This document shows positions 1,775 through 34,489 of a DNA stretch of 34,489 nt, piece after piece (positions within the stretch are counted from its first letter, which is position 1; every line of letters starts with the position of its first letter). The notes below the pieces were generated by a model that had not been told where the DNA came from, searched no databases, and saw only the letters and a list, made by a program, of their open reading frames with translations. The position numbers and the translations under genes were made by a program. The DNA comes from a virus (Duplodnaviria > Heunggongvirae > Uroviricota > Caudoviricetes), in IMG/VR virus record IMGVR_UViG_2541047695_000003; one strand, 5' to 3'.

Positions 1775-1954
1775 TTAACAAACTTGAACGTTAATCTTTA
1801 CCTGAATTTCGTATTTCTTCATTAGCTTGTAGAATCCGCTTCTATCAATTCCTTCCTTCTTAAAGAAGTTTTCCCCGCCTCGCTCAGTGTCGCTGTAAAA
1901 GCGTTTAGCAATATCAACAATCATTTCACGAGTGAACTTAACAGGTCTAGCCAT
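1775..1954 (-). CDS. Small HTH DNA-binding protein (59 aa, MARPVKFTREMIVDIAKRFY...GIDRSGFYKLMKKYEI), paralog family A
   Basis: ATG at 1954 (minus) with GAGGA SD 8 nt upstream (the track ORF starts at an upstream TTG, 1969). Shares the RPxxF...DIA...GI...FYKxMKK motif with 5372-5599 and the C-terminus of 5634-6239. Confidence 0.6.
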   Translation of the reverse strand: MARPVKFTREMIVDIAKRFYSDTERGGENFFKKEGIDRSGFYKLMKKYEIQVKINVQVC

Positions 1955-2053
1955 AAGTAGATTCCTCAAATGTGGATTAATAAGGACAATAAAAAGAGCT
2001 TTTCGCCCTCGATACTTCTATTTATAAAAGTCATTTCAGAAAACCCTGCAAAA

Positions 2054-2075
2054 CCACTGTGTATCTGATCAGTGG
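2054..2075. repeat. Inverted-repeat site CCACTG-N10-CAGTGG (operator-like)
   Basis: Perfect 6-bp arms; a near-identical copy lies at 2139-2160; adjacent to a candidate leftward promoter (-35 TTGCAG 2050-2045). Confidence 0.4.
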
Positions 2076-2138
2076 GAGCACGAATTGCTAAAGAGAAGAT
2101 TAATTATTAATCAATTCGTACAATATTCAACCGAAAAA

Positions 2139-2177
2139 GCACTGTATATCTAACCAGTGCTGTATGAATTAGCAGTG
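2139..2177. repeat. Inverted-repeat site GCACTG-N10-CAGTGC followed by a third CAGTG half-site
   Basis: GCACTGTATATCTAACCAGTGC (2139-2160), then CAGTG again at 2173-2177; direct repeat of the 2054-2075 element (CACTGT-TATCT-A-CAGTG core). Confidence 0.4.
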
Positions 2178-2296
2178 AATCAGGAGATTTTCAGAAGTGA
2201 ACAATCATTTCACACATGTATTTATAACGTGGAAATTCTTGCTTATCATCTATATGGGGACTGTTTAGAAAATTTCAACCCCCACCAGTGAGAAAA

Positions 2297-2325
2297 AGTA
2301 TAAAATAATCCTTGACAGTTGTCAA
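2297..2325 (-). promoter_or_regulatory. Candidate sigma70-type promoter reading leftward (-35 TTGACA, 17-bp spacer, -10 TATACT), overlapping palindrome TTGACAGTTGTCAA
   Basis: Minus-strand TTGACA at 2325-2320 and TATACT at 2302-2297 with exact 17-nt spacing; the perfect 14-bp palindrome 2312-2325 could also be an operator. Confidence 0.4.
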
Positions 2326-2519
2326 TGCACTTGACCTAAGCGAGAAATGACTATCAAAATTTTTGTTTGAAAATGGTAGATCAGGATTATCAACCTTTAT
2401 AACCTATTATAGCGCGGAGACCTTTTGACAATTCTTTTTAAATCATTAACTTACGCCACTTTTTGGTGATTTTTTGATTAAATAATATACAAGAATTTTC
2501 TATCAAAATATTTGATGGG

Positions 2520-2770
2520 AATTGCCCCTGAAATTCTGAATTTTTGCCCCCGAATAAAATCCCCAAGATTCTACTATCCCATTTTTGCCCCTGAAACCTA
2601 CTATTTTTGCCCCTGAAATTCTGGGAAACAGTGATTTTGCCCCTCATTTTTGCCCCTGAAATGCCAATAATTGCCCCTGAAAATCTAATTTTTGCCCCTC
2701 ATTTTTGCCCCTGAAAAGGATTGGTGAGAAAAACCCTTTATAAAACATTAACTTAGCGAGGGGCAAAAGC
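2520..2770. repeat. Iteron-like array: ~9 direct copies of (T)TTTTGCCCCTGAAA (core GCCCCTGAAA / GCCCCTCA) plus one inverted copy (GAGGGGCAAAA)
   Basis: Cores at 2524, 2555 (variant GCCCCCGAAT), 2587, 2609, 2639 (GCCCCTCA), 2652, 2673, 2694 (GCCCCTCA), 2707; inverted copy 2759-2769; irregular spacing of roughly 13-32 bp; no spacer regularity, no coding potential. Confidence 0.75.
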
Positions 2771-2859
2771 GGGGGATCGGGCGTGCATAGATATTATATA
2801 ACACATTCGCTACGCTCATGTGTAAAACTAAAAACAACAAATAACCAAAAAGATAATTA

Positions 2860-2878
2860 GGAGGGCGTAGCCCGACTG
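2860..2878. repeat. Direct repeat copy 1: GGAGGGCGTAGCCCGACTG (contains GGGC-N3-GCCC mini-hairpin)
   Basis: 16/19 identical to copy at 3291-3309; the two copies bracket ~430 bp of repeat-rich non-coding DNA. Confidence 0.5.
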
Positions 2879-3055
2879 CGCGAAGCGCTAACCAATTACT
2901 TCTAGTAACAACTAATTTAAACTAGATGATACTAGATGGTCTTAGAAGGAATTAACTAGTTTGCTCGCTCGCTTCGCTCACTCTCAAACGTCTGCGACGC
3001 CACTGCGTGGCATCGAGAATCACTTCTGAAAGGATTTTCTCGAAAGGGATTTAAT

Positions 3056-3142
3056 ACTAGTTACTAACTGATTCTAGAAAGATAGTAATAATCACTTTGA
3101 AGATAATAGTAGTTAACTGGTTACTAGATGATTCTAGATCAC
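3056..3142. repeat. Tandem imperfect repeats of a TTACTA(A/G)(C/A)TGATTCTAGA-containing unit (about 60-bp period); related ACTAGATGATACTAGATGG at 2921-2940
   Basis: TTACTAACTGATTCTAGAAA (3061-3080) vs TTACTAGATGATTCTAGATC (3121-3140), 17/20 identical; each followed by CACTTT(G/A)A. Confidence 0.45.
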
Positions 3143-3167
3143 TTTAATGATCATGAAAGGTATTGGT

Positions 3168-3196
3168 ATCCCTTCGGGATTGCAACCTTCGGTTGC
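3168..3196 (+). other. Two adjacent GC-stem hairpins with TTC(G) loops (ATCCC-TTC-GGGAT; GCAACC-TTC-GGTTGC), no T-run
   Basis: Back-to-back stable stem-loops seen directly in the sequence; not followed by a U-run, so not a canonical terminator. Confidence 0.3.
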
Positions 3197-3290
3197 TAAA
3201 TTGCTTCCTGATTATTATTTCTCCAAAAGAAAGATTATTATATTCTAAAGATACTTCTTCGTTTTGATCATAATTTAATCAAATCATGAA

Positions 3291-3309
3291 GGAGGGCTTT
3301 GCCCGACTG
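3291..3309. repeat. Direct repeat copy 2: GGAGGGCTTTGCCCGACTG
   Basis: See copy 1 at 2860-2878. Confidence 0.5.
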
Positions 3310-3398
3310 AATACAATCACCTTTCATAATAACAAGAATTTTCTCTTTATAAATAATAGTGAACTTACTTGATTCACTTTCTTTTAGAGGATACCACT

Positions 3399-5371: not shown

Positions 5372-5599
5372 TCAAAAACCTGTTGCTTCTACGATCTGAC
5401 CATCACCGATCTGAACATAGAATTTAATGTCTAACTTCTTCATATTCTTATAGAATTGGGCAATTGAAATCCCATGTTCACTAAGAATCTGTTCTTTCGC
5501 TTCCTTACCACGATCCGCTGTATAATAAGCGTAGGCAATATCAGCCATTTGTTCAGCGTTAAAACGGGCAGGACGACCGCGAGTAGCTTTAGTAGTCAT
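5372..5599 (-). CDS. Small HTH DNA-binding protein (75 aa, MTTKATRGRPARFNAEQMADIAYAY...GISIAQFYKNMKKL), paralog family A; resembles terminase-small-subunit / AlpA-type N-terminal HTH
   Basis: Second in-frame ATG (5599) has GGAGAA SD at 6-nt spacing; the first ATG (5605) abuts the SD. GRP-x-RF...DIA...GIS..FYK.MKK motif shared with 1775-1954. Confidence 0.6.
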   Translation of the reverse strand: MTTKATRGRPARFNAEQMADIAYAYYTADRGKEAKEQILSEHGISIAQFYKNMKKLDIKFYVQIGDGQIVEATGF

Positions 5600-5633
5600 A
5601 GTCATTTCTCCAAATTAAAGTGAATGTTCACTT

Positions 5634-6239
5634 TTATTTAGAGGACTTACATTTTATCGGAAAAAGTTCTCCATCGTCAATACTCATAAAGAACTCTGCC
5701 TTAATCCCGTACTTCTTCAACCGTGAATAGTATGTACCCCGACTTATATCAACCTTGCGCAGCACTTCAAAGAACCCTTTAGGATCGTTGTAATAGTGGC
5801 TGTATCGCACGTTAGCGAGTTCTACAAACAATTCCCTTGTATCACCATAGCCTTTCTTGAAAGCCTCGTTACGATAGCGTGTAATAGCGTGATTCAATCT
5901 CTTCTGTTTCAACACTTCTCGGATCGGCTTCCACTGCAACCTATAGATAGGACCGTCATCAATGCGATAATAACGCTTGATATCAAAATCAAACCAATCT
6001 CGGACTCGCTGAAACTCTGTCTGTGAGGTGCGATACTTCTTAAAGAAGTTATGAATATCGGTATACCCATGATCACGATACAACTCGATTAAAATCTGTT
6101 TAGCTTCCTCACGACTAAAGCCAGATGTTGTGTAATCAGTCTTCTTGTGATGGTGCTTAACTGGCAAACGATATTCATGATCGGTACAACAAGAAAAGGC
6201 TAATTCTACTTCATCTCTTTGTTGCTGATTAATTAGCAT
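5634..6239 (-). CDS. Hypothetical protein (201 aa) with C-terminal HTH-like segment ([16 protein letters not shown]) related to paralog family A
   Basis: AGGGGG SD 5 nt upstream of ATG 6239; divergent from the terminase gene; function unknown. Confidence 0.7.
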
Positions 6240-6326: not shown

Positions 6327-8234
6327 ATGAAACTAATTTCTAATAAGGCCAAATTAAAAAAGATTCTCAGAAATGCAGCCAAATATATTACGCCACCGCC
6401 TAAACTCCTTCCATCGGAATGGTGCGAAGCTAATATGGTGCTGGTAGATGGTCCTCAAGCTGGGGATAAAGTTAAATTGCTGTCATTCCAGAAAGGTATG
6501 ATTGATGCTCCTTTCCTTGAGAACAAGAAAAAGTATGTTCTGATGACCAGTGCGCAGATCGGAAAGACTACCATCCTGAACGGCATCCTGTTTAACCAGA
6601 TGGCTAACGATCCATGCAATATGATTATCGGACAATCAACCGCTAAAGAAATGTCTCAATATCTCGCTGGTAAGATCCGACCGTCTATCGAAGCATGTGA
6701 TGCATTAAAAGACGTGGTTACAGACAAGAATGATCGCAATGCGGTTAACAACAATAACCAACTCCAGCTAAAAACGAATCACTTCCTGTACATGGTATCG
6801 CTTACCAGTCCATCAACCCTGCGCGGTAAGACTGCAAAGGTCGGACTACTAGACGAAATCGATGCTGCTACAGCCTCAGAAGAAGGTGATCCGGTGGCAC
6901 TGGCTGCTAACCGTTTAACTACCTTTGGCGATGAAGGCCGATTAGTCGTATCCAGTACCCCGACCAGTAAGCTCGGAAGCATTAACCAGCAATGGTTATC
7001 AAGCGATATGCGTATGTTTTTTGTTCCGTGTCCTCATTGCGGGGAACACCAGGTGATCGAGTGGGAAAACGTTCAATTTGAATGGCGTAACATCGATGGT
7101 AAGAACTTACCCGATCCTGATACCGCTCGTTATATTTGCCCCCACTGTAAGAACGCATGGACAGAAGGGGAACGAATCAGGGCAGTAGCGCAAGGCGAGT
7201 GGAGAGCAACCCGTGAAAGTGAAGTAGCAGGATTCTGGATTAGCCGTCTGTATTCACCTTTCAGCACGATCCGCGCTTGTGTGGTTGATTTTAGTCATGC
7301 GTGGCAATCCTTTGATTTACAATCATTTTATAACACCGTGTTAGGCAAGGTATACGATGATCAGGACACGGCAGTAGAAGCAAATGAACTGGAACAACTC
7401 AAAACAGATGTTTCTATCGAGAATATCCCTGATGACGTGATTTTCTTGTGCTCAGGAATTGACCAGCAATTGGATCGCGCAGAATCTACCATCTTAGGTG
7501 TAGCGAAAGATAAGGTTTACATTCTGGATCACCGTAGCTTTTACGATCATAACTGTGAACGATACGAATCACCTGTATGGGATCGTCTGGTTAACTTCAA
7601 GAAAACCAAATTCTATAACGTTAATGGTGAACGTGTGCCAATGCTCGCCAGCTTCCTCGATACATCAAACGGTCGATTCACTCAAGCCGGATACCGTATT
7701 TGTGGTAAGTGGAAGAACCTACACGCTATTAAAGGTAGTTCATCTGGTAATGCTCCAGTGATTCCGGTTAAACCTACCCGCACAGGTGGTCATGAATTGC
7801 TTATGCTGGGCGTTAACGTTGGTAAATCCGCTGTTCGTGAAATGCTGGTTAGAAACCTGAAAGATAATCCTCATATTGGCTTAGAAATATCAGAAACCGT
7901 TCCTGATGATTATCTCGATCAGCTTTTGAGTGAATCCATCAAGCGTACTACTACTGGTGTTCGTTGGGTGAAAAATCCAGGTAGTACCCGAAACGAGGCT
8001 CTCGACTGTCTGGTTTATAGCTATGCTGCTTCTCGCTACGTCCTTTCAAAAATGTCATGGGATAAACTCATTGCAATGAAAGACAGCTTAAACAGCGTTA
8101 AAGAAGAACCCGTAAAAGCTCCTGAATCGCAATCTGACGAGCAAATCGAAGAAACTAAGCCAATCACACGACCGCAACGTCAAAACATCGCCAGACGCCC
8201 AAATAGAGGCCGTAGCTGGGTAACATCGTTCTAA
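6327..8234 (+). CDS. Terminase large subunit, lambda gpA family (635 aa)
   Basis: By recall of lambda gpA: matching N-terminal EW-x-ANxxL...FQ segment, Walker-A-like SAQIGKT, CPHCGE...YICPHC zinc-ribbon-like pair, and C-terminal RNEALDC(L/F)VY motif; GAGGG SD; first gene of the long rightward structural operon. Confidence 0.9.
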
Positions 8235-14180: not shown

Positions 14181-17100
14181 ATGCAGTCGATCCAATTTAA
14201 ACGAACAAATGTTTCTGGCAAAAAACCAACGCCGGAACAATTACAGGTCGGTGAGGTAGCAATCAACCTTAAAGACCATGTTATTTTTACCAAAGACCGA
14301 GATCATGAAGTAGTTCAAATCTCTGTTTCTCCTGAAACTCACGCGGCACTAGAATCTAAAGTTGATGCTAATAAAAAAGAACTGGATAGCACAATTGCAG
14401 TAAATGACCGCAATATTCACGCTAAAGTAGATGAAATTAAACAAACTACTGATGCAACCATCGCAGCAAATCACGCAGAAATTAACAATAAAGTTGATGT
14501 AATTAAACGCGAAACCGACGCGACAATCGAGGCCAATAAAAATAAAGCTGCTTCCGATCTTGCTGGTGTTAAAGCTGAATTGTCGGATACCATCAACGCT
14601 AATAAAAATGCGGCTGCTGTAGCAACTCAGGAACTGGACACCCGCATCAATAAAAAAGTTGATGATATTAAATCCCGTACCGATGCAACCATCGCAAGCA
14701 ATGACAAAGCAATCAATGACAAAGTTGATTTGATTAAGGCAGAAACTGACCGCACTATCGCAGCAAATCACGCCTATGCGGAAAATCAGTTAACTGACAC
14801 CTACAATAACCTTACTGGTGTGATTGCAGCCAATAAGCAAGAGGCAGCGGATAACGTCGCAGCATTAACCCGTGATGTTGAAGCCAAAAATACAGCAATT
14901 CATAGCAAAGTTGACAATAACAAGTCTTACACTGATTCTGAATTGGCACGTTTAGAAAGCCGTATTGATGCAGCCGATGGATCTGCTGATGGCAAGTACA
15001 TCAAAAAACACGTAAACACTTATACTGATGGTTATTTGCTGTCTAAGACCGCAAACTATTTTGATGATCCAAATGCGCGTAATCTTGATTACTTTGGTGC
15101 ATTCCGCATGAATGACCTGGCGGGTCATATTGCAATGATCTTGCATGTTCCGCATCCATCTGGTGTTAATCATGCTCGTGGCTTCGAGTTCACTTATGGG
15201 TCTAATCCACATGCTACTGTAAGAACATACGGCTATGATGAATTGGGACATTTGGCATATTCTCACCGCATGTATCATGAAGGTGATAAACCTACTCCGG
15301 CTGAAATTGGCGCATATTCGAAAGCAGAAATTGACCGACTGTTCCAGAAGACGCTTAATTTTGGTATCGAGGGTGGTTGGTTTAAACTAGGCACTTTGAC
15401 AATGCCACAACAACACGGTCGCACGGCTAAGATCCGTTTGGTTGGTGGTAACGGTTATAACGTAGGACATAATGGACAAGCCAATATTATCGAATTGGTG
15501 ATTCGATGCGGCAACAATAGCCCGAAAGGTGTTGTATTCAATGCGTATTATACTATTTGGCATCATGAACAACATTTTTGCGCTATTCCAACCGATGGCG
15601 ACAATTACGATCTTTACGCTTACTACGGTGCACATACAGGATTTGTTTTAGCAGAATATCAAGTTTCTTCCGGTGGTGTTTCTTTAAACCTGTTGGATAC
15701 TCCTGAATATCTGGGTGGTGAAAAACCTGTTGCAGATGAAATTTTTGATGCTCTTAACATTTCATCGTTCAATAACTTTAGCAACCGTGGGACGTTAAAT
15801 TTTGCTGGCAATCATCAAGGCCAATATGATATTGAGCATTTAAACGAACAACCGACAAATGCTAAAAAGATGTTGCGTCGCTTCCGTAGTTGTGCACCAG
15901 CTACAATCTGGCATGAGACAGTTGATGATAACGCATATCGTCTTGCTACTGGATACGAAGATACAAATCAGGAATTATTGCTGTCAGCAACATCCGGGTT
16001 ACATGTCAAGAAATTAACATTGGATGGCGGTGTTACTGGAAATTCTGGTATTGATATTCGTCGAGGACCAAACGAATCAAGCCATTTTAATTTCATGGAT
16101 TATCGCACTGGACAAGATGTTCGTAATGGCTGGTTTGGCTTCGGTGATGGTCAGACCAAAGATTTTATTTGGTGGAACGATAACGGTCAAAACTCTATAA
16201 ACCTGATTGAAGATGGTGAATTGCATATTACTGGCGGTAAAGGCCAGAAAATTGTAATGAATAGCGAAGTTGCATTATCTGAAAATGCTCGTTTGGCTGT
16301 CAAAGGTGGTAACTATGGTTTAATCCTTCGTAATGATGGTTCTAGCTTCCATATTCTTACTACCGATTTAAAAGATTCCTTTGGGACGTGGAACACTCGT
16401 AGACCATTTAGTTATGATTTCGCCGAAGGTGGATTAGATCTAGGTGGCACAGCTACCGCACGCTGTTTACATCTGGGAATTGATGGTAGCACCCGCATCG
16501 AAGATAATATGGTGTTTAGATCAGGGTCTCGTCAGTCAATGGACTATATTGAATTAATCCATTGGGGTAACAGTAATACCGCTCGTAACAACGTTTTGAG
16601 TATGAAAGACTCGAAAGGATTCCTTGCTGAATTTGAACGCGTGGGGGGTACTAACGGCGTTAAAACCAGATTCTTTGGCGAAACATTCACTGACGGTACA
16701 TTATACCTAAATCAGATGAATAATAGCTCTGAACGATTCTCTATCAATAACTGGGGAAATTCAGAAGTTGGTCGCGCGGCAGTGATGGAAGTCGGTGATT
16801 CCAAAGGTTATCACTTCTATACTGAACGTAGGACAGATAACAGTTTGATGTTTGATGTTGCTGGCGCTTTTACTGTGCATGGACCTTCCGGGATTACTAT
16901 CAAAAACTCTGCTGGTGCTCGCCACGTCTGGTTTAGAGATGATAGCGATACGGAAAAGGCTGTTATCTGGGCTACAGATGAGGGTATTTTACATATTCGC
17001 AATAACCACGGTGGACAATTTACACATCACTTCCAGGGCGCGATGATTAAACTGGAAGGGCGTGTTCCTTATGCCGCAGATCAAGGACTTATCCGTGGTG

Positions 17101-29861: not shown

Positions 29862-30225
29862 AACAAAAGCGCCTCTGGTGGGCGCTTTTTTGTTAGAATA
29901 TGCTGGCGATGTTAGCTATATTTCTGACCATTTTTTCATTATAGACAAATATACCGCAGATGATAAAGTTGTATTCGACGAAGTTGATCCGTCTCTGGTT
30001 GAAGCAATGAAAGAACCTGAGATCGTCATTGAAGAAACAAAAGAAGAATCTCCAGCAGTTGAACCAGTGGTCGAAGAAGTTAAGTCAGATGTTGAAGAAG
30101 CACCGGAAGTTAAAGTGGAATCTCCGGTAGCCAACATTTTCTCTGACGAAGCAGAACATCGTTCCCCAGCACATGACACTGATTCATTTTGCGATCTTAC
30201 TGGTTTCCAAAACTACAATAATTAA
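29824..30225 (+). CDS. Acidic hypothetical protein; start uncertain (first in-frame ATG after the terminator is at 30007)
   Basis: Track ORF overlaps the endolysin 3' end and the terminator hairpin, so the real start is probably downstream (TTG 29890 or ATG 30007); the Glu/Val/Pro-rich product could also be non-coding. Confidence 0.3.
   Translation: MIPDQKNHGGMDKTKAPLVGAFLLEYAGDVSYISDHFFIIDKYTADDKVVFDEVDPSLVEAMKEPEIVIEETKEESPAVEPVVEEVKSDVEEAPEVKVESPVANIFSDEAEHRSPAHDTDSFCDLTGFQNYNN
29868..29892 (+). terminator. Rho-independent terminator (AGCGCC-loop-GGCGCT plus TTTTTTG)
   Basis: 6-bp GC stem, 7-nt loop, T6 run directly after the endolysin stop; marks the end of the late operon. Confidence 0.75.
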
Positions 30226-30271: not shown

Positions 30272-31270
30272 ATGAATACTACTTTAGCAAAGGATATCGA
30301 ATTTACCGCAAAAAGCAAACGTGCGACCCCTCCGGTCGAATATGAAACCAGAATCATTAAAGTTTGTCAAGTGCATGGATGGTTATACAGTGGTTTTGTG
30401 CTTCCTGTAAAGAAACCATTCCAGAACACCAAAGTTTGCATAGAAGTTAACGGAAAGGTTAAAACGCCATGTATTAGTCATGTTCTAACTGGTCAGTTTA
30501 CTGGCAAAGATAGAGTATCACCGCCTAAGAAGAAGTTTAGATTTACCGAAGAAGAACACTTAGAAAACGCTCGCAAGTTCTACAAGCCGATAGGGTGGGA
30601 TGTGTTAGGTCTGGCTGAACCTTATCAGGGTGTTGACACTAAACTAATTCTTCGTTGTAAGTGCCACGGAAAGATTCACAAGAAAGGTGATTTACACAAT
30701 AACCGCAGACAAGGCGGGTTAACATGCCCTTTGGTTAGGGGTGTACTTAAATCAATTCAGAATGGTAGAAAACAGGTTATCAGAAACAAGTTTGCACAGC
30801 GCCCTATGCACTTTTATCTAATTCGTGTTGGCGAGAAGTTTTTCAAATATGGAATTACCACTCGCAAAGATCCGATGCAACGGGTAAGAGAACACCAGAA
30901 GCACACCAGCGAGAAAATCACCTTTGAATGCTCACATTTGTTTAACATTGGATGGAAAGCTGGTGATTTAGAAATGGGGATTAAAAAGAATATTCAGGGC
31001 AAGAAAATCCCACGTAAGGTAATGAATAGCGGATTCACAGAAACGCTACCGATTAGCAAGCTGAAAGATGTTAAATCATTCATCAATGAATACATCCACA
31101 CCAACCCATCTAAGCCAATGTATTTTGATGATACCAACGCAATCAATCTGAACAACTACATTAGTGATGAAGACATAGAACGAGATTTATCGCAGTGGAT
31201 GAATGCACCGTTAGCTGATTTAACACCGGAAGACTTAGAACTCGATTTAAGCCCTTTAGAGGCTCTTTAA
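30272..31270 (+). CDS. T5orf172 / GIY-YIG-like domain protein with N-terminal Cys/His-rich region (332 aa)
   Basis: HFYLIRVGEKFFKYGITTRKDPMQRVREH matches the T5orf172 (MUG113) signature of the GIY-YIG superfamily as I recall it; N-terminal CQVHGW...C...CKCHGKIHKKGD suggests a zinc-binding module; GAGGA SD. Confidence 0.7.
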   Translation: MNTTLAKDIEFTAKSKRATPPVEYETRIIKVCQVHGWLYSGFVLPVKKPFQNTKVCIEVNGKVKTPCISHVLTGQFTGKDRVSPPKKKFRFTEEEHLENARKFYKPIGWDVLGLAEPYQGVDTKLILRCKCHGKIHKKGDLHNNRRQGGLTCPLVRGVLKSIQNGRKQVIRNKFAQRPMHFYLIRVGEKFFKYGITTRKDPMQRVREHQKHTSEKITFECSHLFNIGWKAGDLEMGIKKNIQGKKIPRKVMNSGFTETLPISKLKDVKSFINEYIHTNPSKPMYFDDTNAINLNNYISDEDIERDLSQWMNAPLADLTPEDLELDLSPLEAL

Positions 31271-31285
31271 TACAATTAAATTAAA

Positions 31286-31308
31286 AAGGGGTACAGATGT
31301 ACCCCTTA
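31286..31308. terminator. Bidirectional terminator hairpin (AAGGGGTACA-GAT-TGTACCCCTT) between convergent genes
   Basis: Perfect 10-bp stem, 3-nt loop, A/T-rich on both sides; sits between the stops of 30272-31270 (+) and 31344-33023 (-). Confidence 0.55.
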
Positions 31309-31343
31309 AAGTGTTTAGCTCGTTATACGTCGATTTAGGCCGC

Positions 31344-33023
31344 TTAAATTCCAAATTCCTGTAATGGACCTGGTATTTCCTCTTCTGGTTTCCAGTTCTT
31401 ATCTGTCAGCATGTCTAAACATGGATGCAGAACAAGCCCGTTGCTCTCCAGAATCTGCCTATCATTGATAGTTTTCAAATCAATGAATATCCGGCCTTTC
31501 CTCGTTCCTCTTGAATTTTCTATTACAACTCTCTGGGTCTTTCCATCGATGTATTCCAGCACAAACAAGTTTTTATTTCTGTCAATCCTGCTACACCCGA
31601 TCCGCTTTAGAGCTTGCTTAATCTTAAACCGGACCTTTAGTCGTTCCTCGTTATAAACATCTTCTAAATCAAATTCTGCGAGCTTCTCCCAGCCTTGAGA
31701 GTCCACAGAATACATTTCCTCTTCTGCCATCTTGATCTGATTGTAGAGTGTTTCACGCTCGCTATTGAGGGTAGTAATCTGATCGGCTAGCTCCTTCGTT
31801 GCTCCTGTCATAGCAGAAAGGGCAATCAGGTTATCAATCTTGCGTGATATTTCATCAACCTGTACTTTCAACGCCGGAACCGGATTAGCCTTGTCCTCAG
31901 CAATCCATATTTTATCAGCCAGCAATTGCAATACAGCTTTCTCTAATTGATCACCTCGAAAACTCCAGTTTGGATGCTCGCAATCAAGTCTACGTGAACG
32001 GGTCGCATCACATGTATAACGATACTGGTCAGAACGTTTGTTCGTTCCCTTCACTTTAACCATAGCGCAACCGCAATGATCACATTTCAATAGGCCAATA
32101 CCACTAAGCAGGGGGATCGGTTTAACTTCTTCCTTGTCTCCAAAGTTCCATGCTCTAGCACCAATATTTTTCTTAAGGTGATAGAACGTAGCATCATCAA
32201 TAACACGAGGGTAATAATCCTTTAACTCATAGTTAACACCATCTACAGAGACTTCCTTGATACCAATCAAAGCGCGGGTATGGAACAACCTTTCAACCAT
32301 TGCCCGTGACCATTTTGAATGCTTCTTGTTGCTTACTGCTGGTGGCGGTGTATATGTCTCGTTAAGGTGATCCAGTATCTCGGCGGTTGAACGTCCATTC
32401 TTCCGTAATTCCACAATCTCCTGAACAACAGGGAAGTATGTAGGATGAGGCAACACATAACCGGAAGTGGTATCCGTCCACCACATATTCTTTCCAACTT
32501 CCTCGATTGCCACTGCCGGATTCTGGGGATTTTCTTGATGGGCTTTAATCTTAATCAGTGCGCTTGAGTTAGTACGATTGCGCTTAGTCTGGCTTTCCTC
32601 ATTACCACGGATGAATAAAAGGATGGAGAACATCAGGTCCATCGGGTTAGCGGTAACAGTATCCAGCGAGTAGATCTTGTTATCCATGCCAGTAACAATG
32701 GTTATTCCCCTACGGATGATTGAAAGGAATAACTCCTGCGCACTGACAATATCGGCACGGGATAAGCGGTCCAAGTTTTCAATGAATAGCCAGCTACCAA
32801 CAGGAACGGATCTACCAATTGCATCAAGGAAACGAGATAGCGCCCCTGTTTTAGAGTTAGCACCCTTAAACGCAGATACACCCAGATCCTGATAATCATT
32901 TACCAGTTCAAGGTCATACTTTGCCGCAACCTCTCTCGCCATCCTGATTTGTCGTTCATAACTCGAACCATCATTCTGACGCATAGACGAGAAGCGAATA
33001 TACGAATACAGTTTAGTTTTCAT
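31344..33023 (-). CDS. Large serine recombinase (serine integrase, 559 aa)
   Basis: N-terminus MKTKLYSYIRFSS...Q with catalytic-Ser resolvase-type domain, then a recombinase domain, Cys cluster (CDHCGC...C-x-A...CEH) and C-terminal coiled-coil, the architecture of phiC31/Bxb1-type integrases. Start taken at ATG 33023 rather than the upstream TTG 33038 of the track. Confidence 0.9.
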   Translation of the reverse strand: MKTKLYSYIRFSSMRQNDGSSYERQIRMAREVAAKYDLELVNDYQDLGVSAFKGANSKTGALSRFLDAIGRSVPVGSWLFIENLDRLSRADIVSAQELFLSIIRRGITIVTGMDNKIYSLDTVTANPMDLMFSILLFIRGNEESQTKRNRTNSSALIKIKAHQENPQNPAVAIEEVGKNMWWTDTTSGYVLPHPTYFPVVQEIVELRKNGRSTAEILDHLNETYTPPPAVSNKKHSKWSRAMVERLFHTRALIGIKEVSVDGVNYELKDYYPRVIDDATFYHLKKNIGARAWNFGDKEEVKPIPLLSGIGLLKCDHCGCAMVKVKGTNKRSDQYRYTCDATRSRRLDCEHPNWSFRGDQLEKAVLQLLADKIWIAEDKANPVPALKVQVDEISRKIDNLIALSAMTGATKELADQITTLNSERETLYNQIKMAEEEMYSVDSQGWEKLAEFDLEDVYNEERLKVRFKIKQALKRIGCSRIDRNKNLFVLEYIDGKTQRVVIENSRGTRKGRIFIDLKTINDRQILESNGLVLHPCLDMLTDKNWKPEEEIPGPLQEFGI

Positions 33024-33030
33024 ACCATTT

Positions 33031-33072
33031 CCAAACAAAAACGCCCCTACCGCGTATTATAACGATAGGGGC
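33031..33072 (-). terminator. Hairpin GCCCCTA...TAGGGGC followed by U-rich tract on minus strand
   Basis: 7-bp stem with 16-nt loop; minus-strand downstream GTTTTTGTTTGG; sits between 33087-33506 and the recombinase start and overlaps the alternative TTG start. Confidence 0.4.
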
Positions 33073-33086
33073 TAGGTGATTAAAGA

Positions 33087-33506
33087 TTAAAGAATTTCAC
33101 GGCAGCTAATCAGGGAATAAGACGTATCACCTTTTTTAACATCAAATATAGGAGAACCATCAATAGAATGCAGATATTTGATGTAAGACTTACCATCTTC
33201 GGAACCATAATATTCTTCTTTCTCGTTCTTATCTTCTTTCAGTTTCGGGCTTTTGATTGTTTTATCAAATACCGGATCGTTGAAAGCAAATTGACTATTA
33301 TCATCATTCACTCGAACCTTTACACCGATAAAACCACGGTATTTGCCAGACGGCGCATGATAATAACGGTCGCCATCACTCAGGTAGCGTGTATCATCTC
33401 CTTTATGTTCGAAGTAGGAATTGCACACATAATAGGTATAGGTATTAGCATTCGCAGCACCAACCAAACCCAGAGCAAGAACAACACCCGCGATAATCTT
33501 TTTCAT
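33087..33506 (-). CDS. Secreted/periplasmic protein with cleavable signal peptide (139 aa), moron-like
   Basis: MKKIIAGVVLALGLVGAANA signal peptide with A-N-A cleavage-site motif; mature part Tyr/Asp/Lys-rich with two Cys; GAGGA SD 9 nt upstream. Confidence 0.75.
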   Translation of the reverse strand: MKKIIAGVVLALGLVGAANANTYTYYVCNSYFEHKGDDTRYLSDGDRYYHAPSGKYRGFIGVKVRVNDDNSQFAFNDPVFDKTIKSPKLKEDKNEKEEYYGSEDGKSYIKYLHSIDGSPIFDVKKGDTSYSLISCREIL

Positions 33507-33817: not shown

Positions 33818-34204
33818 TTAAGCGCGAACGATGGTCAGAGTATCCAGCAAACCTTTTTCGTATAATTCGAAACACGTTTTATATTGCTCAATCTGGAAAC
33901 CATAGCGGGTGATCTTATTCAGTAGGACAATCGCGCTATTCTCATCTAGGTATTGTCCTTGCTGTCCAATTACATAAGTCTCACGATTCAATCTCAGCTT
34001 ACGGAAACCTTTAACACCTAATTCCTTAGCCACCGCTTTAATCTCTTTAATCTCACCCTCAGCCGCAACATATTCAGCGTCGATAATCTCAGGTGATGAT
34101 CTCAGTGCTACCAGAACTAAGGCCATTGCTTCTTCTTCTGTACGCGCAACACCAGCTTTCTCGAAAGTCATCTCACCAAATTTACGAATCATGATATTGA
34201 ACAT
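33818..34204 (-). CDS. Hypothetical protein (128 aa)
   Basis: Clean ORF with its own terminator; no motif recognised. Confidence 0.7.
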   Translation of the reverse strand: MFNIMIRKFGEMTFEKAGVARTEEEAMALVLVALRSSPEIIDAEYVAAEGEIKEIKAVAKELGVKGFRKLRLNRETYVIGQQGQYLDENSAIVLLNKITRYGFQIEQYKTCFELYEKGLLDTLTIVRA

Positions 34205-34216
34205 TGTTTTGCTGCC

Positions 34217-34489
34217 TTACTTCTTGCTGATAAACTCTTTAGCGATAAAGTTGATTACTTCTTTCAGCTTCTTGTCTGTATCGATGCACGCCGGTAATTC
34301 TTCTTTAATCTCCTGCGGCAGATACACATTCCCTTTAAAGTGGAGGAAACCATCATTACCAATCATGTAGGAGAACATCCATTCACAATCGTTATCCGCT
34401 TCCCAGAACGCTACGGTCTCATCGCCAATCAAGGTAATGTCCATGTTGCGACGTGCTGCGTAGTTGATGATTGCTTTGCCGATGTTCAT
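34217..34489 (-). CDS. Hypothetical protein (at least 90 aa); start coincides with window edge and may lie beyond it
   Basis: ORF runs to the last base of the window (ATG at 34489-34487 on minus strand), so the N-terminus may be truncated; 12-nt gap to the downstream gene suggests an operon. Confidence 0.55.
   Translation of the reverse strand: MNIGKAIINYAARRNMDITLIGDETVAFWEADNDCEWMFSYMIGNDGFLHFKGNVYLPQEIKEELPACIDTDKKLKEVINFIAKEFISKK

What the first reader, a model, noticed from the sequence alone, without database searches (positions are those of the whole stretch)
31286..33506. Large serine recombinase in an otherwise lambda-like structural context, implying serine-integrase lysogeny; attP not yet located
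The 559-aa recombinase has the resolvase-type catalytic N-domain, recombinase domain, Cys cluster and coiled-coil of phiC31/Bxb1-class integrases, whereas lambda-like phages usually carry tyrosine integrases. With the Rha-like antirepressor it argues for a temperate or formerly temperate phage. No attP-like imperfect palindrome was confidently identified; candidates are the intergenic regions 31271-31343 and 33024-33086, which are also occupied by terminator hairpins. A signal-peptide protein immediately upstream looks like cargo.
Basis: partly seen in the sequence, partly recalled or inferred. Interest (0 to 1): 0.6.

Follow-up and report, generated by a model that had tools for sequence, protein, structure and literature searches.

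The report
Serine integrase of an E. coli prophage
The gene is a genuine large serine integrase that most likely inserts this uncultured ~36-kb E. coli tailed phage into the host gene ycdX at a 2-bp AA crossover; this is an ordinary mechanism, but the phage family and its three attachment sites appear to be undescribed.

Summary
Window 31344-33023 (- strand) encodes a 559-aa large serine recombinase (LSR) with resolvase, recombinase and zinc-ribbon domains, a predicted coiled coil, and a full-length fold match to the PhiC31 and Bxb1 integrases.

The same element sits in the chromosome of 60 of 5,426 complete E. coli genomes. The window's LSR is 100% identical to that of strain PEC41, whose ~36-kb prophage lies inside ycdX.

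Comparing attL and attR with empty MG1655 ycdX shows a precise, conservative insertion with exactly 2 bp (AA) shared:
- attB: CATCCCGGA-AA-TCCCAAATATG
- attP: GGGTACATGATATTAGGG-AA-CCCGAACGTAGTCAACCCC

attP is not in the window. Its core lies 43-44 nt beyond position 34489.

Sister prophages sit in hicB and codB, also with AA at the crossover position. The insertion site tracks the allele of the DNA-binding domains (12/12 ycdX, 6/6 hicB, 1/1 codB). The catalytic domain assorts independently, so the gene is mosaic.

No tyrosine integrase was found, and dN/dS is below 0.25 in every domain. No intact attP, free phage genome, or recombination directionality factor (RDF, the excision cofactor) was found, so activity is inferred.

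Verdict: a new member of a known kind, of modest interest.

The parts
31344..33023 (-). Large serine recombinase (serine integrase) gene, 559 aa plus stop codon. It is 100% identical in protein to WP_001767185.1 of the ycdX-integrated prophage of E. coli PEC41.
32574..33023 (-). Residues 1-150: resolvase-type catalytic domain with the motif Y8-I-R10-F-S12-S-M-R-Q16 and D85-R86..R89. Two versions circulate in the family (0-2 versus 31-32 aa differences), and they assort independently of insertion site.
32439..32573 (-). Residues 151-195: end of the long alpha-E helix (model helix 127-164) and the linker.
32124..32438 (-). Residues 196-300: recombinase domain (DNA binding). Differs at 17-19 positions in hicB-type alleles and 48-49 in class C alleles (one of which is codB-integrated).
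31908..32123 (-). Residues 301-372: zinc-ribbon domain with invariant C314, C317, C338 and C348. Differs at 12-13 positions in hicB-type alleles and 23 in class C alleles (one of which is codB-integrated); 0 differences among ycdX-type alleles.
31674..31907 (-). Residues 373-450: coiled-coil insertion (model helices 382-406 and 410-438).
31347..31673 (-). Residues 451-559: beta-rich C-terminal region of unknown role. The last 12 residues are predicted disordered.
31286..31307 (-). Perfect GC-rich hairpin (AAGGGGTACA..TGTACCCCTT) with T/A runs on both sides, between the convergent 332-aa ORF and the integrase gene. It is an intrinsic terminator, not attP.
33043..33072 (-). 11-bp-stem terminator hairpin plus T-run between the signal-peptide ORF and the integrase start codon. 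It is not attP and probably limits read-through into the integrase gene (inferred).
33087..33506 (-). 139-aa secreted (signal-peptide) protein with no family match. It sits in a slot that varies between related prophages, so it is likely accessory cargo.
33818..34204 (-). 128-aa protein of unknown function (PHROG 14908), lying between the integrase gene and attP.
34217..34489 (-). 90-aa protein of unknown function (PHROG 6147), the last gene before the prophage end. Its start codon is the last base of the window. This exact protein was next to ycdY-ycdZ-csgG in all 10 of the 10 longest contigs read.
34489..34489 (.). Window edge. In PEC41 and 10 other loci the sequence continues TGTTGTACCCCCTCGTGTTATTGTGGGTACATGATATTAGGG-AA-(ycdX). 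The attP/attR crossover dinucleotide therefore lies 43-44 nt beyond this base, outside the window.

Best explanation
The gene encodes the integrase of a temperate siphophage of about 36 kb that infects E. coli. Shown: the protein is a complete large serine recombinase. The whole element, which carries this gene 1.5 kb from one end and no other integrase, is inserted precisely inside the host gene ycdX at codon Asn134 of the conserved HPGNP motif. The host and phage sequences share exactly 2 bp (AA) at the junction. Inferred from the established mechanism of this family: integrase dimers bind the imperfect inverted repeat attP (GTGGGTACATGATATTAGGG-AA-CCCGAACGTAGTCAACCCC) on the circularised phage genome, and bind attB (CATCCCGGA-AA-TCCCAAATATG) in ycdX. 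The two dimers synapse through their coiled coils. All four strands are cut at the AA dinucleotide, leaving 2-nt overhangs. One half of the complex rotates 180 degrees and the strands are rejoined, producing attL and attR. AA is not palindromic, so it fixes the orientation of insertion. Excision should require a phage-encoded recombination directionality factor, which was not identified. Target choice is set by the recombinase and zinc-ribbon domains. Sister prophages with variant versions of exactly these domains, and a diverged right attP arm, sit in hicB or codB instead.
For: Domain architecture and catalytic and zinc-binding residues. Predicted structure matches full-length PhiC31, Bxb1 and other serine integrases at E 1e-15 to 1e-17 and the LI integrase C-terminal domain 4kis at 1e-9. 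Chromosomal copies in 60 of 5,426 complete E. coli genomes and none on plasmids. PEC41 prophage bounded by two ycdX fragments between ghrA and ycdY. attL, attR and MG1655 attB overlap by exactly AA, with no duplication or deletion. The same attR junction appears in 11 independent loci and in about 27 complete genomes. The window's LSR is 100% identical to PEC41's. Salmonella homologues (71-76% identity) sit at the orthologous ycdX position with TATTAGGG-AA-TCCAAAG. hicB and codB insertions also have AA at the same offset from the conserved left attP arm. Insertion site tracks the recombinase plus zinc-ribbon allele (12/12 ycdX, 6/6 hicB, 1/1 codB), while the catalytic domain assorts independently. 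dN/dS is 0.0-0.24 in every domain, so the gene is under purifying selection. No tyrosine integrase or other recombinase appears in Pfam or PHROG scans of the window's ORFs or in the PGAP annotation of three full prophages; the only exceptions are IS transposases in some copies. In all 60 genomes the two attP arms break at the same point.
Against: No intact attP, and so no excised circle or packaged genome, was found in IMG/VR, JGI metagenomes, GTDB representative genomes, PLSDB plasmids or complete E. coli genomes. No cultured phage relative exists in INPHARED. Present-day activity of both phage and integrase is therefore inferred. No RDF, repressor or replication gene was recognised. The integrase gene is separated from attP by three small genes and is preceded by a terminator, which is less compact than the usual int-attP pair. 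The hicB site shares 9 bp and the codB site 5 bp with attP, so the 2-bp crossover is pinned by sequence only at ycdX.
Confidence: 0.85

Rival explanations
1. The prophage is grounded (defective). The serine recombinase did integrate an ancestor, but the element can no longer excise or form particles, and the gene is a relic.
For: No free phage genome or intact attP was found in any collection. There is no cultured relative. No recognisable repressor, replication protein or RDF was found. Some copies carry IS5, IS1 or IS3-type insertions.
Against: In the window all large structural ORFs are intact and free of IS elements. The element occupies three different sites, and only about 1% of genomes carry it, which implies repeated recent integration. 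The integrase is under purifying selection within the ycdX class (28.8 synonymous versus 5.2 non-synonymous differences). Segments nearly identical to virulent T-even phages imply recent co-infection and exchange.
Confidence: 0.1
2. The recombinase serves another role, such as multimer resolution, DNA inversion (tail-fibre switching), or an unknown role like the YbcK-type serine recombinases of lambdoid phages. Integration would then be carried out by something else.
For: The closest E. coli phage homologues are YbcK-like proteins (31.6% identity) inside lambdoid genomes that presumably also carry their own integrase (not checked here). The weak PHROG 125 'DNA invertase' hit (1.7e-11) covers the N-terminal part (residues 2-256). 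A large tail-fibre gene with T-even-like modules is present.
Against: No other integrase is present in the element. The gene always lies 0.9-1.7 kb from the prophage end. The junctions have the 2-bp crossover signature of serine integrases. The DNA-binding-domain allele co-varies with insertion site. No inverted repeats were found near the gene, and there is no attP-like copy inside the window.
Confidence: 0.03
3. The recombinase and the variable genes next to it form a separate small integrative island or satellite nested at the prophage end. That island, rather than the phage, is what the enzyme moves.
For: The neighbouring genes are highly variable: a 332-aa endonuclease-like ORF, a GIY-YIG nuclease, a MUG113-type protein, and UvsW/UvsY-like genes in relatives.
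Against: The host-gene fragments flank the whole ~36 kb element. The far (left) arm of attP adjoins the Nu1-like small terminase gene and is conserved between the ycdX and hicB elements. No internal second junction or att-like copy exists.
Confidence: 0.02

Closest known systems
Phage-encoded large serine integrases with solved structures and biochemistry (PhiC31 Int, Bxb1 Int, Listeria A118/LI Int, TP901-1 Int)
   Same: Same domain order: catalytic domain, alpha-E helix, recombinase domain, zinc ribbon with embedded coiled coil. Full-length fold match. Intragenic attB, imperfect inverted-repeat att sites, a non-palindromic 2-bp crossover, and conservative insertion without target duplication.
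   Different: Only 13-17% sequence identity in the structural alignments. The host is a Gram-negative enterobacterium. There is a roughly 110-residue beta-rich C-terminal region. The integrase gene is separated from attP by three genes. The RDF is unknown and no biochemistry exists.
YbcK-type serine recombinases of E. coli lambdoid phages and the DLP12 prophage (e.g. phages 4A7, Lambda_4C10, Perceval)
   Same: They are the closest E. coli phage homologues by sequence: 31.6% identity over 81% of the protein. The domain set is that of a large serine recombinase.
   Different: From my own knowledge, YbcK genes lie inside lambdoid genomes in the late or nin region, those phages integrate with tyrosine integrases, and no integrase role is known for YbcK. 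Here the gene is end-proximal and is the only integrase.
Serine recombinases of Burkholderia phages JC1, Bcep22 and Bcep176
   Same: Best full-length phage hits: 28-30% identity over 85-94% of the protein. The JC1 gene lies at the start of the deposited record (nt 23-1651), and the Bcep22 gene is annotated 'integrase' in its RefSeq record.
   Different: Different phage types and hosts, and low identity. Their att sites were not compared here.
Computationally mined LSR and att-site catalogues (Durrant et al. 2022, PMC10083194)
   Same: Same logic as used here: att sites are inferred by comparing an integrated element with an empty site. That study covers thousands of LSRs.
   Different: The att sequences and the one protein accession (WP_001767185) searched were not found in the supplementary text held for that paper, and none of four accessions occurs in any searched paper. 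Whether this LSR is catalogued elsewhere could not be established.
XisF (fdxN-element excision recombinase) and CcrB (SCCmec)
   Same: Weak NCBIfam similarity: XisF 4e-14, CcrB 2e-3.
   Different: Scores are far below the equivalog cut-offs (52 versus 375 bits), so it belongs to neither family.

Membership tests
Large serine recombinase / serine integrase | N-terminal resolvase-type catalytic domain with the nucleophilic serine and conserved Arg/Asp residues | tested here: met
   PF00239 9.3e-15. Motif YIRFSSMRQ. Y8, R10, Q16, D85, R86 and R89 are invariant and S12 is nearly invariant in 32 homologues.
Large serine recombinase / serine integrase | Recombinase domain following the alpha-E helix | tested here: met
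   PF07508 4e-9, residues 198-287. The model has helix 127-164 followed by a mixed alpha/beta domain. Fold match to 4bqq and 4kis.
Large serine recombinase / serine integrase | Zinc-ribbon domain with four Cys ligands | tested here: met
   PF13408 1e-10, residues 310-368. C314, C317, C338 and C348 are invariant.
Large serine recombinase / serine integrase | Coiled-coil motif inserted in the zinc-ribbon domain | tested here: met
   Model helices 382-406 and 410-438, pLDDT about 80-90. Alignments to full-length integrases span about 550-650 columns. This is a prediction only.
Large serine recombinase / serine integrase | Conservative attP x attB recombination with a 2-bp central dinucleotide and no target-site duplication | tested here: met
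   attL, attR and empty attB at ycdX overlap by exactly AA. The junction is reproduced in 11 loci. AA lies at the same offset at hicB and codB. This is inferred from sequence; the cleavage position was not measured.
Large serine recombinase / serine integrase | Encoded within, and near one end of, the element it integrates, and the only integrase there | tested here: met
   The gene start lies about 1.5 kb from the attR junction and 0.9-1.7 kb from the end in 28 proviruses. No other integrase was found.
Large serine recombinase / serine integrase | Catalytic activity, unidirectionality, and control of excision by an RDF | not testable with these tools
   No RDF homologue was recognised. Recombination assays are needed.
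Small serine resolvase / invertase (Tn3, gamma-delta, Hin, Gin, Pin) | About 180-200 aa, with a catalytic domain plus only a C-terminal helix-turn-helix | tested here: not met
   The protein has 559 aa with recombinase and zinc-ribbon domains. Small-resolvase structures match only the N-terminal part, over alignments of about 140-250 columns (ranks 24-31).
Lambdoid phage (lambda-like lysogeny module) | Tyrosine integrase plus Xis next to attP, with a CI/Cro-type immunity region | tested here: not met
   No Phage_integrase hit in any ORF scanned. No tyrosine recombinase in the PGAP annotation of three full prophages. No repressor was recognised. The structural genes alone are of lambda type.
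YbcK-type recombinase | Close sequence relationship and internal location in a lambdoid genome | tested here: not met
   31.6% identity over 81% of the protein. Here the gene lies at the prophage end in a non-lambdoid genome.

The most novel reading that the evidence does not exclude
This prophage family is a natural experiment in re-targeting a serine integrase. A cassette of about 175 residues (recombinase domain plus zinc ribbon) has been exchanged by recombination (dS 0.38 inside the cassette versus 0.06 in the catalytic domain). This moves the phage between three intragenic sites (ycdX, hicB, codB). The catalytic domain is shuffled independently. Between the ycdX and hicB types, only the right attP arm has changed. 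If so, as few as 31 substitutions define a switch of attB specificity, which would give a directly testable map of specificity determinants. A further speculative layer is that reversible disruption of the hicB antitoxin DNA-binding domain or of ycdX acts as a phage-controlled host switch.
Probability: 0.35. Interest if true: 0.55.

Novelty: new member of a known kind. Interest (0 to 1): 0.35.

Why it matters
It adds a well-defined serine integrase system native to E. coli and Salmonella, with attP and attB sequences and a 2-bp core. Most characterised serine integrases come from Gram-positive hosts or actinobacteria. It also provides three closely related integrase alleles (74-92% identical) with three different chromosomal targets, and a mosaic structure that points to the domains responsible. 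That is useful material for engineering integrase specificity and for orthogonal integration tools in enterobacteria. In addition, it flags an uncultured temperate phage family, present in about 1% of complete E. coli genomes, that exchanges DNA with virulent T-even phages. The mechanism itself is standard.

Tried and rejected
1. Both are intrinsic-terminator hairpins, and no attP-like sequence occurs in the window at up to 3 mismatches.

2. I searched for an intact attP, meaning an excised or packaged genome.
- Exact and degenerate patterns in IMG/VR gave 0 hits and one chance hit in an unrelated GC-rich contig.
- JGI metagenomes gave 15 chance hits, none related by BLAST.
- GTDB genomes gave 8 chance hits.
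- A 600-bp reconstructed attP found no match in PLSDB.
- In complete E. coli genomes the two arms were always split.

3. Literature searches found nothing relevant.
- ycdX + prophage returned only an unrelated Salmonella ycdX frameshift paper.
- hicB + prophage + serine recombinase returned nothing relevant.
- The RefSeq accessions returned nothing.
- A general LSR / E. coli search returned nothing specific.
- The Durrant 2022 supplements held no match.

4. A sequence search of the PDB found only an N-terminal domain match, 3guv. The fold search was needed to see the full-length matches.

5. PADLOC defence models on the neighbouring genes gave nothing significant.

6. A small-invertase reading is rejected on domain content.

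7. A promoter spanning attP was considered. A TTGAC-like hexamer in the right arm faces a TAATAT hexamer in the left arm. By reading the sequence, the spacing is only about 12-15 nt, so I do not claim it.
Full report
**1. What is in the window**

Window 31344-33023 on the minus strand is an intact ORF of 559 aa from its ATG. An in-frame TTG 15 nt upstream would give 564 aa.

The domain evidence is as follows.
- Pfam places a resolvase catalytic domain at residues 6-153 (E 9.3e-15), a Recombinase domain at 198-287 (4e-9) and a recombinase zinc beta-ribbon at 310-368 (1e-10). All three exceed their gathering cut-offs.
- PHROG 95 'integrase' matches residues 2-484 at 4e-63.
- In an alignment of 32 homologues down to 27% identity, Y8, R10, Q16, D85, R86, R89 and the four cysteines C314, C317, C338 and C348 are invariant. 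S12, in the motif YIRFSSMRQ, is nearly invariant.
- An AlphaFold2 model built on that alignment has mean pLDDT 81. It shows the long alpha-E helix (127-164) and two long helices at 382-406 and 410-438, the expected coiled coil.
- A Foldseek search of the PDB returns full-length serine integrases as the top nine hits: 9dxd, 9dxf, 9y66 and 9dxh (deposited only as 'serine integrase' complexes), PhiC31 9rah and 9tep, and Bxb1 9iu2, at E 2e-17 to 3e-14 (most at 1e-15 to 1e-17). Next come PhiC31 4bqq and the LI integrase-DNA complex 4kis.
- Small resolvases match only the N-terminal part of the protein.

**2. Surroundings of the gene**

One is at 33043-33072, directly upstream of the integrase start. 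The other is at 31286-31307, after its stop codon and between convergent genes.
- The 139-aa ORF at 33087-33506 has a Sec-type signal peptide and no family match.
- Two more small minus-strand ORFs follow, at 33818-34204 and 34217-34489. The start codon of the last one is the final base of the window.
- The rest of the window is a siphovirus late region of lambda gene types: a gpA-like large terminase, a portal, a protease-capsid fusion, a lambda-type tail tube, an assembly chaperone, gpT, a tape measure and a J-like tip.
- It also carries a Rha-family regulator and an M15 endolysin.
- There is no nucleotide similarity to any cultured phage in INPHARED, apart from segments shared with T-even phages. 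The best capsid hit is 43% identical.

**3. Integrated relatives and the real attachment site**

The 4.3 kb around the gene is present at 89-98% identity in 60 of 5,426 complete E. coli genomes. It is always chromosomal.

In strain PEC41 the element lies between ghrA and ycdY, flanked by two fragments of ycdX.
- Window position 1 corresponds to a gene boundary about 1.24 kb inside the left prophage end.
- Window position 34489 corresponds to a gene boundary about 45 nt inside the right end.
- The window is therefore a provirus trimmed at gene edges, and both junctions lie outside it.

Aligning the two PEC41 junctions with the empty ycdX of MG1655 gives:

| Site | Sequence |
|---|---|
| attB | ...AAGCCATCCCGGA-AA-TCCCAAATATG... 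|
| attL | ...CATCCCGGA-AA-CCCGAACGTAGTCAACCCC... |
| attR | ...GTGGGTACATGATATTAGGG-AA-TCCCAAATATG... |

- attL matches attB up to and including the AA. attR matches attB from the AA onward. Nothing is duplicated or lost.
- A 2-bp overlap with conservative joining is the signature of serine integrases.
- AA corresponds to ycdX nucleotides 400-401, in codon Asn134 of the conserved HPGNP motif.
- The reconstructed attP is GTGGGTACATGATATTAGGG-AA-CCCGAACGTAGTCAACCCC. By reading the sequence, it is an imperfect inverted repeat: GGG/CCC next to the core, TT/AA at positions 5-6, and TGGG/CCCA at positions 15-18.
- Its core lies 43-44 nt beyond window base 34489, about 1.5 kb upstream of the integrase start.
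- No sequence within 3 mismatches of the central 25 nt of attP occurs in the window.

**4. Reproducibility**

- The window's integrase is 100% identical in protein to PEC41's.
- The same attR junction (GATATTAGGG-AA-TCC[C/G]AAATATG) occurs in 11 independently fetched loci.
- A junction probe finds 12 complete genomes with the whole junction. It finds 15 more in which the contiguous match runs from the phage end into ycdX (one of these was checked).
- The exact 90-aa end protein was adjacent to ycdY-ycdZ-csgG in all 10 of the 10 longest contigs read.
- Salmonella homologues (71-76% identical) sit at the orthologous ycdX position, with TATTAGGG-AA-TCCAAAGTATCC.
- In IMG/VR the gene is found in 28 provirus contigs, mostly of about 30-38 kb (range 8-45 kb). 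It is always 0.9-1.7 kb from a contig end.

**5. Sister elements at other sites**

- At least 22 complete genomes carry a 94-96% identical phage end joined to hicB instead of ycdX.
- In MEI003 the 35.7-kb prophage splits hicB. There, attB is GAATTGGC-AAACCTAAA-CAGG and attP is ATATTAGGG-AAACCTAAA-TGTTGTAAACCCC, with 9 bp in common.
- In 39EVA a related prophage splits codB. There, attB is GGTGGGT-AA-GGCAACC and attP is ATGTTAGGT-AA-CCCCACAGGTCAATACC, with 5 bp (GGTAA) in common.
- In all three cases AA lies at the same offset from the conserved left attP arm.

**6. Specificity tracks the DNA-binding domains**

I compared 41 full-length integrases from the fetched loci.

| Recombinase + zinc-ribbon class | Differences from the window | Insertion site (where known) |
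|---|---|---|
| A | 0-3 in the recombinase domain, 0 in the zinc ribbon | ycdX, 12 of 12 |
| B | 17-19 in the recombinase domain, 12-13 in the zinc ribbon | hicB, 6 of 6 |
| C | 48-49 in the recombinase domain, 23 in the zinc ribbon | codB, 1 of 1 |

- The catalytic domain exists in two versions (0-2 or 31-32 differences), which combine freely with classes A and B. L004 has version 1 with class B. L008 has version 2 with class B. L036 has version 2 with class A.
- Between the window and MEI003, synonymous divergence is 0.06 in the catalytic domain but 0.38 in the recombinase plus zinc-ribbon segment. The gene is therefore a recombinational mosaic.
- dN/dS is 0.0-0.24 in every domain and comparison, so the gene is under purifying selection.
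- This fits the established role of these two domains in reading att half-sites. It is correlative evidence, not a functional test.

**7. Is another enzyme responsible?**

- Pfam and PHROG scans of the window's ORFs find no tyrosine integrase or transposase.
- The PGAP annotation of three complete prophages lists only this recombinase. The exceptions are IS5, IS1 and IS3-type insertions in some copies, which are absent from the window.
- The left attP arm... more precisely, the arm at the far (left) prophage end is conserved between the ycdX and hicB elements and adjoins a Nu1-like small terminase gene. The integrated unit is therefore the whole phage, not a small island.

**8. What was not found**

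- No intact attP was found in IMG/VR, JGI metagenomes, GTDB representatives, PLSDB or complete E. coli genomes. All pattern hits were unrelated chance matches. In all 60 E. coli genomes the two arms break at the same point.
- No RDF, repressor or replication protein was recognised.
- No paper in the searchable library mentions these proteins or a ycdX, hicB or codB prophage of this type.
- The att sequences are not in the held supplements of the large LSR-mining study.
- Present-day excision and infectivity are therefore inferred.

**9. Verdict**

The gene is the serine integrase of an uncultured temperate siphophage family of E. coli and Salmonella (confidence about 0.85). The window's allele targets ycdX at an AA crossover.

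Its candidate attP sites are wrong, and the true attP lies just outside the window.

This is a new, computationally well-defined member of a known kind. The mosaic alleles with three targets add moderate interest for engineering integrase specificity.

Noticed in passing
window 1970-3368 (repeats at 2522-2775 and 2920-3139): This ~1.4-kb stretch has no ORF above 70 aa and is also unannotated in the PEC41, MEI003 and 39EVA prophages. It holds about 10 copies of a TTTTTGCCCCTGAAA-like motif (one inverted, at 2759-2775) and ACTAGATGATxCTAGA repeats. It has no Rfam match. It could be an iteron-type origin or a repressor or terminase binding array.
   Followed up: partly
window 15044-18666: The distal part of the 1,174-aa tail-fibre gene and the small genes after it are 79-94% identical in DNA to the gp37 long-tail-fibre region of virulent T-even phages. 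Some sister prophages also carry a gp38-like adhesin. This indicates recent exchange between a temperate siphophage and virulent myophages.
   Followed up: partly
window 30000-30209: These 209 bp, inside the 133-aa ORF after the endolysin, are 98.6% identical to the 'inh' gene (inhibitor of prohead protease gp21) of RB49/Phi1-like Krischvirus phages.
   Followed up: no
L002 13237-13788 (just left of window position 1): The Nu1-like small terminase gene (PHROG 57, 2.4e-15) sits about 1 kb from the left prophage end. It is separated from the large terminase gene (window 6327-8234) by about 6 kb containing the repeat region, the Rha gene and small ORFs, which is an unusual arrangement.
   Followed up: partly
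window 1775-1969 (-), 5372-5605 (-), 5634-6239 (-): Three apparently paralogous proteins share a C-terminal helix-turn-helix-like motif (...G[IS]xxxxFYKxMKKxxI...) and have no family match. They are possible regulators in a genome where no repressor was recognised.
   Followed up: no
window 30272-31270 (+); relatives L005, L058-L061, L067, L068: The slot between the endolysin and the integrase is hypervariable. The window has a 332-aa PHROG-681 'endonuclease'-like protein there. Relatives carry a GIY-YIG nuclease, a 391-aa MUG113/CapR-like protein, or UvsW-like helicase and UvsY-like genes of T4 type.
   Followed up: partly
L007 9433-9744 / L004 6157-6276 (MEI003 hicB): The hicB-type prophages cut the antitoxin gene hicB at nucleotides 304-312 of 417, removing its C-terminal DNA-binding part while hicA (the toxin gene) stays intact. 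The consequences for the toxin-antitoxin module are unknown.
   Followed up: no
L063, L024, L066 (attR junctions): Some attR junctions have an attB-like base next to the core. L063 reads TTAGGA-AA at ycdX. L024 reads TTAGGC-AAACC and L066 reads TTTGGC-AAACC at hicB. These are either attP variants or footprints of where strand exchange and mismatch correction occurred.
   Followed up: no
window 1 and 34489: Both window edges coincide exactly with gene boundaries of an integrated prophage. The window is therefore a trimmed provirus call that lacks about 1.24 kb on the left and about 45 nt on the right, including both att junctions.
   Followed up: yes
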